Source: Zootoca vivipara (Eukaryota). From it: 64,000 nt of DNA. The DNA is taken from NCBI RefSeq assembly GCF_963506605.1, contig NC_083277.1, positions 95,356,001 to 95,420,000 of the forward strand. The letters are read 5' to 3'. The position numbers were made by a program, and so were the translations under genes. Below the pieces are notes generated by a model that had not been told where the DNA came from, did no database searches, and saw only the letters and a list, made by a program, of their open reading frames with translations. Below, one piece after another: positions 29,908 through 35,103 of the stretch (position 1 is the stretch's first letter; every line of letters begins with the position of its first letter).

Positions 29908-30338
29908 ATCTCCGTTGAATACAATGGGGCTTAAACATGAAGATCAGCCTCCCTTCCTCTAGCAAAACATATACTGTACTGTAATATGACTAGAAAGTGA
30001 AACGTTGGTTTGCATTCTGCGGGGGGGGGGGGGGGGAGGCATTCCCCAATGTTAACAAAATACCTTCTCCTTACAACTGCTGTATTTGAACAAAAGAAAC
30101 TGACCCAAGATGCTCGATTTCAGCTCCTCGGAGGACTTCTTACACCCAGCAGCAGCCCAGCTACCTTCTCTTTCAAACACCCAGCCTCGTTCTGTTCCAA
30201 CAGCCACTGAACAAAATTTCGGGTTTTTTTTTTGGGGGGGGGGTTGCATTACGACGAGGAAAAGCCCACCAACCTCTGTCTGTTTACTCAGAAGCAAGTC
30301 CCAAGTGTGTCCTCCCTAATATGAAGTTGGGATCGCGG
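29908..30338 (+). repeat. Direct repeat, copy 1 (upstream of BIRC5)
   Basis: Colinear with 34702-35103; shares exact 34-nt and 45-nt runs. Confidence 0.9.
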
Positions 30339-30599
30339 GCTATTTTATTGAAACGATTTTACACGTGTGTTTAGCTTCTTTTCCCCATCACGTGGGAAGC
30401 GGGGTTTCTAAATCCATTTTTTGTTTTGTTTTGTTTCTTCTGCCTCTAACTTTCGGAAATACAGCCTTATTTGCCTGTTCCAACAAGAACAACGGAAACC
30501 TCTTAGAGGTATTTTAAAGAGTTTGTCCTGTCTTGTGTTTCTGGTCTTTAAAACGTGCAAGGTTTTGCCTCTATCCTCCTCTTACTGCATTTTATAAAG

Positions 30600-30704
30600 A
30601 GAGGGAGAACTACAACTCCCGGCATGCTCAGCGCATAGCAGCCGATTTCCCGTCATTCTTTGCTCGGCCGTTGTTCCAACCGCGGTATTTTGAACGCGGC
30701 AGAA
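30600..30704 (+). promoter_or_regulatory. BIRC5 G2/M promoter: ZNF143-type motif plus CDE/CHR
   Basis: actacaactcccggcatgc at 30609; E2F-like tttcccg at ~30646; aaccgcggtatTTTGAA (CHR 30689-30694) just upstream of the ATG, the layout known for mammalian survivin. Confidence 0.75.
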
Positions 30705-33700
30705 ATGGTGCCGGGAGGTCCTTCTTCGGGTCCGCAAGTGCGGCCGGGATTCGAGGAGTTTCTGAAGGAGCACCGAGTCGCCACTTTCGACCACTGGCCC
30801 TTTACCTCCGGCTGCTCATGCACTCCAGACCGGGTGAGGGAAACATTTCTCCCAGCCAGCTTGCCTCCTAAGTACTTTTCCTCCTCCTTATCTAATTTCT
30901 GCACTCCATGCATAATTTTACACACTTCTATCATGTCTCCTCTTGGTTGCCTTTTCTCTACTAAACTAAAAATCCCCCAAAGTGACCTTCCCTTTTAGGG
31001 AGGTTGCTCCACCCTCTTGATCATTTTGGTTTCCCTTTTCTGAACCGTTTCCGGCTGTCAATATCCTTTTTGAGGTGAGACCATCAGAACTGTAAACAGT
31101 TTTCCAAGTGTGGTTGCACCATCAATTAGTAAAACAGTATTTTGATATTGACAATTTTATTTTTAATTCAACTTGGTTTATTTTCCTAATGATCCCTAGC
31201 TTGACATTTGTCTTTCTACAGCTATCACACACTGGGTCAACACCTTCATCAGATTATCCTCTACAACCCAAGGTCTTGTTCCTGGTCAGTCACTACCACT
31301 CTGGACCCCATGAAATACATTTATTTTTTGCCCCAAATGTGCAACTCTTTACACTTGCTTAAACTGAATTTGCATTTCCCACTTTGCTGCCTATTCACCC
31401 AGTTTGGGGAGACCCTTTTGGAGTACAGTGGTACCTCAGGGTACAATCACTTCAGGTTACAGACTCCGCTAATCCGGAAGTAGTACCTCGGGTTAAGAAC
31501 TTTACCTCAGGATGAGAACAGAAATTGTGTGCTGGTGACGCGGTGGCAGCGGGAGGCCCCATTAGCTAAAGTGGTACCTCAGGTTAAGAATGGTTTCAGG
31601 TTGAGAACGGACCTCTGGAACGAATTTAAGTACGTAACCAGAGGTACCACTGTACTTCACAATCCCTTTTAGTTTTAACTATCCTGAGCAATTTAGTATC
31701 AGCAGCAAACTTGGCTACATCATTGCTCACCCTAACTCTTGGGATGTGTGATTGTTGAATGTACACTTGTTGAACAACTTTCCTCCCCTTCCCTCTCTCT
31801 TCCCAGATGGCAGAAGCTGGATTTGTTCACTGTCCTACTGACAATGCACCCGACGTGGCCCAGTGCTTCATATGTTTTAAGGAGCTGGAGGGATGGGAGC
31901 CGGATGATGACCCTATGTAAGTATTTTGTTGTTGGATCTGCTGACTTGCAGTGCCTCCAAATAAGTGCTCGGGATAGGCATATCTGCCTTTTTACCAGGA
32001 CAACATAATGCAGGGATGAAGGAAGCAAATCTGCAAGCTTAATATAGGGTACAAGTAATTTAGATGGTTTGTCCACATCTTCCATCTTTCCTTTCCTATG
32101 CCAAAAGCCTAATATGGCTACTTAAGACCCAGTGAGACCACTTGTCATAGGCAGGTTACATTTATGTAATTTATTTGATCTTCAAACATCTGGCTACATT
32201 TCCCACAGAAGCAGGTGGTTAGATTAAGCAGGTGGTGTGGACACATTTATTTAAAAACCTAAGCATAGGGTGGAGGGTCTCAAAGCATTAATACCCCAAC
32301 AGATCTTGCTTCCCCATTCTGTTACCAGGAAACCCCCAACTTCCCGTACAGCACACAGTTAAATGTGTCTCTTTCTCCTCGGCTTTGCAACATCTCCCAG
32401 TTCTTTTGCTGACACACAGCAGTTCTCTCCAGTGCAGCCCCACCTTCCTGGCCATGTAGTCGTTTCTCACTTAGATGCTACTATTAAAACCCAGTTCCTC
32501 CCTCTGAAGTGCATATCAAGGCGCTAAAAATAGCTATCTGGACTTAATCTACAAATGAATTTGCTTGATCAGTTTCCCAACCTCCCCCAAAACTTATAAG
32601 ATTACAGTACCTACTTCCAAATAGAAAATGTCTGTCCTGCGCATACAAAAAACAAACAGCAGCATAACAACTTGCCCTTAGGTAAAGGGACAGGGACAGA
32701 TTAAAACAGTGAGAAAAGTTCTGTGTCCATATTGGCAGCAAGTGATTTGCTTTGAAGCAGGCCTAACCTAGAGACTTAGAACAAGCATCCTATACTGGAC
32801 CAGTGGTGGGGTAGTAAGTTTTCTACTGATTCCCCCCCCCCCACCAGAAAAGGTCCTGTTTCATTAGTAACAATGAATGGATGCCAATAGCAACTAAATA
32901 TTAGGGAAGCTTGACACTTTCAATGTTTCTGGCTTTGTTTACAAGTAAAAGAAGCATGCTAGATGAGATTACTCTCTAGGGCACGAGAAAAATTTCCTAC
33001 ACAAATTGCCCTAATTTGCACAGAAAAAATAAACAATTCAAAAATTTGGTGGAAAGCCTAGAGAGTGAGGAGGGATGTCATCTATTCTCCTTTAATTCAG
33101 GAGATCAGATATGTTATTTCAGAAGTTATTACAAGACCAGCTGGTGCTGTGCAATCCACTGCTGAATGTAAAGCTGGCACATGACATCAGGTGGTCTTAA
33201 ACTTGATTGCACTGAGCAGCGTAAACATTTAATGTCTTCAAGAGAAAGGCAGTTTCAGTAGCTGGAGTCCTGATTTTGCATGAGCAGCAAAGAGGGCATA
33301 AAGAAAAAAAGTAATCAAAACCAGTCCCATTATTTCCCCTGCATTGGGAAGTCACAGAAGAGGTGGAGCCATGGCCCTCCTCTATTATTAACATGAAACT
33401 GTTTTGGGTGGTGGTTCAGAAGCTTCAGCTGGTGCCCTCTGTTCTGGCCTACCTTCTGTACTTAGTGGGTTATTAATGAGCATCCTACTTCAGTGTTTCA
33501 GTATTTGCATTGCCCCCCTTTTGTTTTCCTGGCTCAATTCAAGGTACTAGTTAAAGCAGGGGTCAGCAAACTTTTTCAGCAGGGGGCCGGTCCACTGTCC
33601 CTCAGACCTTGTGCGGGCCCGGAGTATTTTTTTTTTAAATGAATTCCTATGCCCCACAAATAACCCAGAGATGCATTTTAAATAAAAGGGCACATTCTAT

Positions 33701-34686
33701 TCATGTAAAAACACGCTGATTCCCGGACCGTCCATGGGCCGGATTTAAAAGGCAATTGGGCTGAATCCGGCCCCCAGGCCTTAATTTGCCTACCGATGAG
33801 TCAAATCCTCTAAATCCGTGTAAATATTGGGCTCACATATGCTACCTTTATCCCTGCTGTAAGATTTGTGAAAAGTTTTAAATCTCTTAGTAGCTCTTCA
33901 CTCTGAACCCTAGAGACGTCTGCCTAATCCTTTGAGGTCCATTGTGCTAATATAGTTTGGCCTCCTTCTTTCTAGGGAAGAGCACCGGAAACACTCCCCC
34001 AAGTGTGCATTTCTGGCTCTCCAGAAAGATATTAAGGACTTGACACTGCAAGAGTTTCAGAAACTTTGCAAAGAGAGAACGAAGGCCTTGATCGTAAGTA
34101 TGGTCTGCTGGGAGCTGTGAATGTAGTCTAGCTTTTCCTGCTCTCCTGCTCTCCCTACAACAGTGTTTCCCAAAATTGGGTCTTCAGCTGTTTTTGGACT
34201 ACAACTTCCACCATCTCTAGCTAGCAGGACCCAGGGGTCAGGGAATATGGGGATTGTAGTCCCAAAACAGCTGGGGACTTAAGTTTGGGAAACATTGCCC
34301 TACACTACAGTTTCAAAATGGTCATTTAGCACCCTGCCCTCCTCCACACCAGATCATACATAGTCTCTTGCCCATAGAACTGCCTCGATTTGAAGATAGT
34401 GTTCTTCACTGGTTAGGCTGCAACTGTGAGATCAATTTGGGTTTCCCTGCTGTGTTATGGTTTTCCTGCTTGCTTCTCAAAGTGAATAGCCACTGCCCAT
34501 CCCTACCTGCAGCAAAGCCTTCCTCTTGTAGTCCACTTTACAGCTCAAATACTTGCCTTTTCATTAGTTACTAACAGGAGTTCCTTTCTGTTTTTCTCCT
34601 AGAGAAAGGAAATTAACCAGAAAATTAACGACGTGAAAAAACGTGCTGAGAAGACGCGTAATGCAATTGAATTGCTGTCTATGTAA
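30705..34686 (+). CDS. BIRC5: Survivin (BIR domain), 146 aa; exons 30705-30833, 31807-31916, 33976-34093, 34603-34686
   Basis: [71 protein letters not shown]...: CCHC zinc ligands and a C-terminal helix; GT-AG and in frame. Confidence 0.96.
30896..31740 (-). mobile_element. CR1 LINE fragment split by a mariner MITE
   Basis: Typical reverse-strand CR1 ORF2 tracts (tagtatcagcagcaaacttggctac = [12 protein letters not shown]; tgcataattttacacacttctatcatgtctcc). Confidence 0.65.
31426..31652. mobile_element. Tc1/mariner (Tigger-like) MITE
   Basis: TIR cagtggtacctc/gaggtaccactg; TA TSD. Confidence 0.85.
33557..33798. mobile_element. Non-autonomous hAT (Charlie-like) element
   Basis: caggggtcagcaaact ... 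aatttgcctaccgatg termini; degenerate 8-bp TSD agttaaag/agtcaaat. Confidence 0.65.
34161..34297. mobile_element. Palindromic hAT-type MITE
   Basis: TIR cagtgtttcccaaa/tttgggaaacattg; TSD ccctacaa/ccctacac. Confidence 0.8.
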
Positions 34687-34701
34687 CGTTCCTAGTGTAC
34701 T

Positions 34702-35103
34702 ATCTCCATTGAACACAATGGGGCTTTTTGTATACAATATAAATTTAAATTATAAAAATGTAATATGAATAGAAAGTGAAACTGGTTTGCATTCTGCCGG
34801 GGGGGGGGGGGAGGCATTCCCCAATGTTAACAAAATACCTTCTCTTTGGAACTGCTGTATATGAACAAAACAAACTGACCCCAAATGCTCAATTTCAGCT
34901 CCTCGGCGGACTTACACCCAGCAGCAGCAGCCCAACTACCTTTTTCTCTTTCAAACACCTACCCTTGTTCTGTTCCAACAGCCACTGAACAAAATTTCGG
35001 GGTTTTGGGGGGGCATTACGATGAGAAAAAGCCCATCAACCTCTCTCTGTTTACTCAGAAGCAAGTCCCAAGTGTGTCCTCCCTAATATGGTTAGGATCG
35101 CGG
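34702..35103 (+). repeat. Direct repeat, copy 2 (BIRC5 3'UTR)
   Basis: Starts 16 nt after the BIRC5 stop; colinear with 29908-30338. Confidence 0.9.

What the first reader, a model, noticed from the sequence alone, without database searches (positions are those of the whole stretch)
29908..35103. BIRC5 is bracketed by a ~400-430 bp direct duplication: its upstream region reappears in its own 3'UTR
Seen: 29908-30338 (ending ~370 bp before the ATG) and 34702-35103 (starting 16 nt after the stop) are colinear. They share a G-run and exact 34-nt (gaggcattccccaatgttaacaaaataccttctc) and 45-nt (tctgtttactcagaagcaagtcccaagtgtgtcctccctaatatg) blocks. There are no TIRs, TSD or third copy in the window. 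Inferences: (a) relic of a tandem BIRC5 duplication or deletion; (b) a substrate for unequal crossover that could amplify survivin or excise a ~4.8-kb circle holding promoter plus whole gene; (c) the mRNA carries homology to its own upstream DNA, allowing R-loop-type feedback.
Basis: partly seen in the sequence, partly recalled or inferred. Interest (0 to 1): 0.7.

Follow-up and report, generated by a model that had tools for sequence, protein, structure and literature searches.

The report
Old local duplication into BIRC5 3'UTR
A 400-base piece of DNA upstream of the survivin (BIRC5) gene also sits in the tail of its messenger RNA, in this species and two relatives; it is likely a one-off copying accident that is probably drifting without a function.

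Summary
The duplication is real. 29908-30338 and 34702-35103 are 94% identical over the aligned core, and these are the only 2 copies found in the genome (a control repeat gave 2398 candidates). DNA contigs of another individual bridge both ends of the upstream copy, and spliced contigs from this species and two relatives carry the second copy inside the BIRC5 3'UTR. One relative also has the upstream copy. So it is neither a misassembly nor a dispersed repeat, and it predates a species split of about 6% non-coding divergence. The upstream copy is the likely donor: an older ~90-nt repeat runs intact across its left end but is cut at the UTR copy, and the UTR copy is flanked by a short target-site-like repeat (GTACTAT / GTACAAT). 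A single two-switch templated insertion fits best; gene duplication followed by deletion fits worse. I found no sign of function: the copies diverge like neighbouring non-coding DNA, the promoter core is not duplicated, a circle would lack the AATAAA signals, and 26 other direct-repeat pairs lie in 864 kb sampled. One 46-nt tract hints at gene conversion (inconclusive). Ordinary in kind; low interest.

The parts
29908..30338 (+). Copy 1 (upstream; inferred donor)
   Evidence: both junctions bridged by X8 DNA contigs 27250-30032 and 30275-30950, right junction by organism B contig 30166-30384
34702..35103 (+). Copy 2 (inside the BIRC5 3'UTR; inferred insertion)
   Evidence: inside spliced contigs of X10, X17, X19, X20 and X18
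34697..34703 (+). Left target-site-like repeat GTACTAT (last 2 nt shared with the donor start)
35103..35109 (+). Right target-site-like repeat: GTACAAT here, GTACTAT in organisms B and C (first nt shared with the donor end)
   Evidence: loose-end letters of X20 and X18
29873..29933 (-). Decayed ~90-nt palindromic repeat that spans the left end of copy 1 and continues 35 nt outside it
   Evidence: nhmmer E 7.9e-5; flank score reached by 0 of 3000 random windows, against 44% for the copy-2 flank
30278..30343 (+). Decayed copy of the same repeat at the right end of copy 1 (counterpart 35047-35111)
   Evidence: E 2e-5 and 1e-5
29773..29833 (-). A further copy of the repeat, outside the unit; organism B lacks the 97 nt between equivalent positions of this and the next copy
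   Evidence: joint 29796-29894 in one contig of depth 3
34727..34758 (+). AT-rich patch in this genome's copy 2 that replaces donor-like sequence
   Evidence: B and C contigs skip 34727-34753 and match copy 1 from 29947
34799..34844 (+). 46-nt run identical to 30024-30069; possible short gene-conversion tract (inconclusive)
   Evidence: 5-6 of the sites where both copies here differ from B and C fall within 38 nt; post hoc P 0.013-0.06
30609..30694 (+). Promoter core outside the duplicated unit: ACTACAA plus SBS-like site at 30609, TTTGAA (CHR-like) at 30689, CpG o/e 0.98
   Evidence: human BIRC5 SBS and CHR from passages of PMC1904299 and PMC4176359; relatives' contigs start at 30670-30680
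30705..34686 (+). BIRC5 coding exons 1-4 with three introns
   Evidence: exon joints in contigs
35657..35680 (+). AATAAA signals at 35657 and 35675, downstream of copy 2
   Evidence: contigs end at 35601-35680

Best explanation
About 430 bases from just upstream of the BIRC5 promoter are also present 15 nt after the stop codon and are transcribed as part of the 3'UTR; they were likely copied there once, in an ancestor of three related species, by a replication or repair template switch, and are probably drifting neutrally. Inferred steps: a nascent DNA end at GTACTAT (34697-34703) annealed 4.8 kb upstream at a loosely similar stretch (7-8 of 13 nt plus AT) inside an old repeat, copied to 30338, and returned 7 nt behind where it left, which duplicated the target. 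Shown: two copies, both junction sets, presence in the mRNA, sharing with relatives. Inferred: direction, single event, neutrality.
For: Two copies only against 2398 candidates for a control repeat. Direction: the old repeat continues past the left junction in copy 1 (0 of 3000 random windows score as high) but not in copy 2 (44% do). A target-like repeat flanks copy 2 (chance in random pairs 0.14% for 7/7, 2.0% for 6/7, 0.65% for any strict repeat of 4 or more) and none flanks copy 1. CpG count 11 in copy 1, 7 in copy 2; CpG o/e 0.45 and 0.37 against 0.20 in the rest of the UTR, with separate CpG losses in the UTR copies of A, B and C. Left microhomeology 7/13 (P 0.025), 8/13 with the B/C letter (P 0.006). 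Age: sites 30184 and 30188 group copies by position, not by species. Neutral-like rates: unit 19/306 vs rest of UTR 37/542 (P 0.78); copy 1 12/219 vs AFMID 3' end 41/747 (P 1.0). Templated insertions from nearby loci with microhomology are described for FoSTeS/MMBIR (passages of PMC5120786).
Against: No outgroup lacking the insertion was seen, so the empty site is reconstructed, not observed. The 7/7 target match combines this genome's left side with B/C's right side; it is 6/7 within this genome, I could not see B/C's left letters at 34696-34703, and it was found after looking. The CpG contrast is small (11 vs 7). The 19/306 count comes from a truncated table and is a lower bound; the comparators are UTRs, not proven neutral DNA, and 300 sites give little power. 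Organism B's upstream copy rests on two contigs of depth 3-4; none was seen for C. Copy 1 vs copy 2 here (21/339) is no more divergent than orthologues (19/306), and lower than copy 1 vs B/C's UTR copy (34/376, 38/377, which include homopolymer noise), which leaves room for gene conversion.
Confidence: 0.7

Rival explanations
1. Relic of a tandem duplication of 29908-34703 (promoter and gene), followed by deletion of nearly all of the second copy.
For: Gives the same final layout; direct orientation and 4.8-kb spacing fit.
Against: One BIRC5 exon-1 match and no second last-exon match in the genome; no exon or intron remnant beside either copy in the window self-BLAST; the deletion would have had to end within 7 nt of the duplication breakpoint.
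Confidence: 0.1
2. RNA-templated patch: a read-through or upstream transcript covering copy 1 was reverse-transcribed into a break after the stop codon (TSIP-like).
For: Organism B has low-depth contigs over copy 1 in a library with no cover of nearby intron bins; experimental templated insertions are 73-414 bp and RNA-derived (PMC5110952).
Against: No poly(A) tail, no TTTT/A site; TSIP donors are described as distant, while this landed 4.8 kb from its donor in the same orientation.
Confidence: 0.08
3. Reverse direction: the unit is ancestral 3'UTR and was copied upstream.
For: The UTR copy is seen in all three species, the upstream copy in only two.
Against: The copy would have had to land in register inside a matching repeat upstream; the target-like repeat and CpG loss are at the UTR site. 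C was sampled only by RNA-like contigs.
Confidence: 0.05
4. The pair is functional or actively maintained: mRNA-to-promoter pairing (R-loop or antisense duplex), or a programmed substrate for BIRC5 circles or amplification.
For: The mRNA does carry the homology; a 46-nt identical tract may be a conversion; weak hints that copy 1 is transcribed (B contigs of unknown strand; 3 opposite-strand reads from 1 start in X21, just upstream of copy 1); single-copy local pairs are uncommon, 1 of 58 pairs in 864 kb, and that one is this pair.
Against: Neutral-like divergence and indels; GC skew -0.05 and -0.09; fold z 0.30; no Rfam match in the unit; promoter core not duplicated; 26 other direct pairs of 200 bp or more within 20 kb in 864 kb, 14 at least as identical; X8 paralog depths 43.5 and 48.6 against flanks 56-62; a circle would exclude both AATAAA; the reciprocal deletion removes a gene whose loss is embryonic lethal in mouse (PMC2551682).
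Confidence: 0.07

Closest known systems
Templated insertion from nearby sequence by FoSTeS/MMBIR-type template switching (PMC5120786, passages)
   Same: A few hundred bases copied from a nearby locus, donor intact, microhomology at junctions
   Different: Here isolated, old, shared between species and inside a 3'UTR, not part of a complex clinical rearrangement; mechanism inferred from junctions only
Templated sequence insertion polymorphisms, class 1 and 2 (PMC5110952, parts 1-2 of 4 read)
   Same: Size, intact donor, non-repeat template; short target duplication resembles class 1, microhomology resembles class 2
   Different: Donor is 4.8 kb away, not distant; no poly(A) tail or TTTT/A site; not seen as a presence/absence polymorphism
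Repeat-flanked homology-mediated deletion substrates (PMC12350158, passages)
   Same: Direct homology of 200 bp or more flanking a segment can template recurrent deletions
   Different: No deletion, duplication or circle observed; such pairs are common in this genome
LTR-flanked or composite mobile element that captured a gene (recalled definition)
   Same: Direct repeats of ~400 bp bracketing several kb
   Different: No TG..CA ends, no outer target duplication, two copies only, gene keeps introns and neighbours

Membership tests
Local templated insertion (template switch) | Donor intact and nearby | tested here: met
   4794 bp apart
Local templated insertion (template switch) | Microhomology or homeology at junctions | tested here: met
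   left AT plus 7-8/13 (P 0.025-0.006), right 1 nt only
Local templated insertion (template switch) | Empty pre-insertion site observed in an outgroup or allele | not testable with these tools
   all three species seen carry the UTR copy; no vertebrate relatives are held
TSIP class 1 (LINE-mediated) | Target-site duplication of 5 bp or more | tested here: inconclusive
   4 nt strict, 7 nt with overlaps; 6/7 in this genome
TSIP class 1 (LINE-mediated) | Poly(A) tail, poly(A) signal and TTTT/A site | tested here: not met
   junction sequences; no AATAAA or ATTAAA in the unit
TSIP class 1 or 2 | Donor in a distant region | tested here: not met
Dispersed transposable element | Many genomic copies | tested here: not met
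   2 candidates vs 2398 for control; the tool warns that no match does not prove rarity. Only the short end segments belong to a repeat family (606 pattern matches, 0 for the control pattern)
LTR or composite element carrying BIRC5 | TG..CA termini and a target duplication around the whole | tested here: not met
   ends ATCTC..CGCGG, no outer repeat of 3-20 nt
Tandem gene duplication relic | Remnant of a second gene copy | tested here: not met
Active recombination substrate | Hybrid junction, copy-number change or circle observed | not testable with these tools
   contigs drop rare variants; one DNA run shows near-equal depth
Concerted evolution of the pair | Copies group by species rather than by position | tested here: inconclusive
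   30184 and 30188 group by position; cluster at 34792-34829 P 0.013-0.06 post hoc; relative rate 11 vs 7, P 0.48; B's copy 1 not seen over that tract
Structured or known non-coding RNA | Rfam match or unusual fold | tested here: not met

The most novel reading that the evidence does not exclude
The BIRC5 gene's two ends meet often enough that promoter-flank DNA was copied into the 3'UTR and is still occasionally homogenised with it, and upstream antisense RNA through copy 1 pairs with about 350 nt of the BIRC5 mRNA, giving a lineage-specific self-regulatory loop on an essential mitotic gene.
Probability: 0.06. Interest if true: 0.7.

Novelty: new member of a known kind. Interest (0 to 1): 0.2.

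Why it matters
As it stands it is a clean, datable example of a local templated insertion that supplied about 40% of an essential gene's 3'UTR (402 of about 1000 nt) and was tolerated; it can serve as a clade marker. It would matter more only if the promoter-flank/mRNA homology were shown to regulate BIRC5 or to yield circles; nothing here shows that.

Tried and rejected
Dispersed repeat: rejected. Misassembly: rejected. Second BIRC5 or retrocopy that might keep an older UTR: none found. LTR or composite element, ncRNA: rejected. No holder listed is on record as RNA; I treat X10 and X17-X20 as RNA because their contigs join the exons. I laid 7 of 23 listed runs (X20 twice), and no DNA run on the gene body or copy 2. 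No upstream-copy contig was seen for organism C, which is not evidence of absence. Earlier findings of this scan: 3 look-ups, nothing returned. Literature: no paper on this feature appeared, but these searches are weak (the term '3 UTR' matches few papers; only listings seen; most subscription papers are not held), so absence from print is not shown. No supplements were read.
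Full report
Observation. The pair is the top hit of a window self-BLAST: 29980-30338 vs 34759-35103, 318 of 365 columns, with a further 23/25 block at 29908-29932 vs 34702-34726. The core has 21 mismatches in 339 aligned bases and exact runs of 46, 45 and 35 nt. The gene is BIRC5: four exons give 146 aa, exon 2 hits Pfam BIR and survivin chains, and contigs join the same exon ends. Neighbouring ORF pieces hit thymidine kinase, claudin-like and beta-eliminating lyase families (4 of 8 pieces had a hit), which fits the TK1-AFMID-BIRC5-TMEM235-THA1 order that I recall for vertebrates; AFMID is my label from that order, not from a hit. 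So the gene has probably not moved.

Copy number and assembly. Searches of the own genome with the whole unit and with its core each returned 2 of 2 candidates, the two copies. A control, another ~350-bp pair in the window, returned 2398 candidates, so the search does see dispersed repeats. Exon 1 has one match and the last exon plus UTR has no second locus. Contigs of DNA run X8, from a different individual by its 0.51 word share, run 27250-30032 and 30275-30950 across both ends of copy 1, and give two separate contigs over 30040-30167 at depth 43.5 and 48.6 against 56-62 in flanks. Copy 2 is bridged by spliced contigs of X10 (this species), X17 and X20 (organism B) and X19 (organism C), which run to 35669, 35601, 35617 and 35525. 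These also show that copy 2 is in the mature mRNA; the AATAAA signals lie at 35657 and 35675.

Age. B and C differ from this genome by 56/848, 60/864 and 55/772 over the UTR. B also has the upstream copy: one contig covers 30166-30384, 46 nt past the right junction, with 12 differences in 219, and another crosses the left junction (depth 3.9 and 3, so single letters may be errors). At 30184 and 30188 the upstream copies of A and B agree with each other and the UTR copies of A, B and C agree with each other. The duplication therefore predates the split. It cannot be much older unless conversion has acted, since paralog divergence (21/339) equals orthologue divergence (19/306).

Direction. Both ends of the unit lie in decayed copies of a ~90-nt palindromic repeat with at least 606 pattern matches in the genome. 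A profile from 30 of them finds the repeat at 29873-29933, across the left junction of copy 1, but only weakly past the junction of copy 2; the 36 nt outside the junction score above all 3000 random windows for copy 1 and are matched by 44% for copy 2. Copy 2 is flanked by GTACTAT on the left and GTACAAT on the right; B and C read GTACTAT on the right. Random position pairs give 7/7 in 0.14% and 6/7 in 2.0% with up to 3 nt slack. This was found after looking, and B/C's left side was not visible. Copy 1 has no such repeat. CpG is higher in the unit than in the rest of the UTR and is being lost from the UTR copy. Together these point to copy 1 as donor; none is decisive alone.

Mechanism (inferred). 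A nascent end at GTACTAT switches to the donor, helped by 7-8 of 13 matching bases plus AT, copies about 430 nt, and returns 7 nt back. One event explains orientation, proximity, homeology and the target repeat. Such nearby templated insertions with microhomology are described in PMC5120786 (passages). Tandem duplication plus deletion needs two events with near-coincident ends and leaves no remnant. The TSIP classes of PMC5110952 (parts 1-2 of 4 read) need a distant donor, and class 1 a poly(A) tail; neither holds.

Function. The unit diverges like its neighbours (19/306 vs 37/542, P 0.78; 12/219 vs 41/747, P 1.0), with the caveats that the first count is a lower bound from a truncated table and power is low. 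It has no Rfam match (3 weak matches in 7 kb, none in the unit), folds at shuffle level and is not G-skewed apart from one run of 13-16 G. The ACTACAA/SBS-like site and the TTTGAA element, which match elements described for human BIRC5 (passages of PMC1904299 and PMC4176359), lie outside the unit. As a crossover substrate the pair is ordinary: in 864 kb of this genome (three blocks, one around the window) there are 58 pairs of 200 bp or more and 80% or more identity within 20 kb; 27 are direct, and 14 of the other 26 are at least as identical. It is, however, the only pair of the 58 made of sequence not repeated elsewhere in the sample, so single-copy local duplications are uncommon (under about 3.5 per Mb). 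A 4.8-kb circle would hold promoter and exons but not the AATAAA signals (weak variants occur in this genome's AT-rich patch), and the reciprocal deletion removes a gene whose loss kills mouse embryos (passage of PMC2551682). Human data show that 200-9000 bp homologies can template recurrent deletions (passages of PMC12350158), so rare events are plausible; I could not test for them.

Results that cut against plain neutrality. Five or six of the 7-10 sites where both copies here differ from B and C fall in 38 nt, overlapping the 46-nt identical run (post hoc P 0.013-0.06). This may be a conversion tract, which would show that the copies have met at least once; the relative-rate test is not significant (11 vs 7, P 0.48). 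B's contigs over copy 1 come from a library with no cover in nearby intron bins, which hints at low-level transcription of unknown strand, and X21 has three opposite-strand reads from one start just upstream of copy 1. These are hints only.

Verdict. Real, two-copy, shared with relatives and part of the mRNA. Most likely an old local templated insertion with no demonstrated role: a new member of a known kind, interest 0.2.

Noticed in passing
window 27403-28070: Contigs of B and C and 2 raw reads of this species join 27403 to 28070 (GT..AG), a further 3' exon of the upstream gene (likely AFMID); B contigs continue to 28904, so its 3' end may come close to copy 1.
   Followed up: partly
window 15914-15994, 15526-15580, 29773-29933, 30278-30343, 55223-55269; L010-L039: A ~90-nt imperfectly palindromic dispersed repeat, at least 606 pattern matches in the genome; family name not established.
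   Followed up: partly
window 29797-29893: Organism B lacks 97 nt between equivalent positions of two neighbouring copies of that repeat, suggesting repeat-guided deletion or duplication at this locus (one contig, depth 3).
   Followed up: no
window 34603-35669: X10 (same species) has 1092 contig letters over 1067 reference bases with 29 gap columns, so the UTR is length-polymorphic within the species.
   Followed up: no
window 2317-2675 and 36089-36441: A second ~360-bp direct pair in the window is a high-copy dispersed repeat, 2398 candidates.
   Followed up: yes
window 46900-54200, minus strand: Exon-like ORF pieces of a threonine-aldolase-like gene (Pfam Beta_elim_lyase); I recall its human counterpart being a pseudogene. 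Intactness not checked.
   Followed up: no
G000:C10:20027117-20032083 (L102-L103): A 382-bp direct pair at 99.7% identity, 4585 bp apart, low copy in the sample; may be the two ends of a young LTR element. Observed only.
   Followed up: no
window 34187-34271: Weak Rfam match to mir-5408 (35 bits, cutoff 90) on a hairpin-forming dispersed repeat in intron 3; probably the repeat, not a microRNA.
   Followed up: no
window 30722-30845: In raw run X21 the few reads on BIRC5 exon 1 lie on the strand opposite to the reads of the upstream gene; too few to interpret.
   Followed up: no
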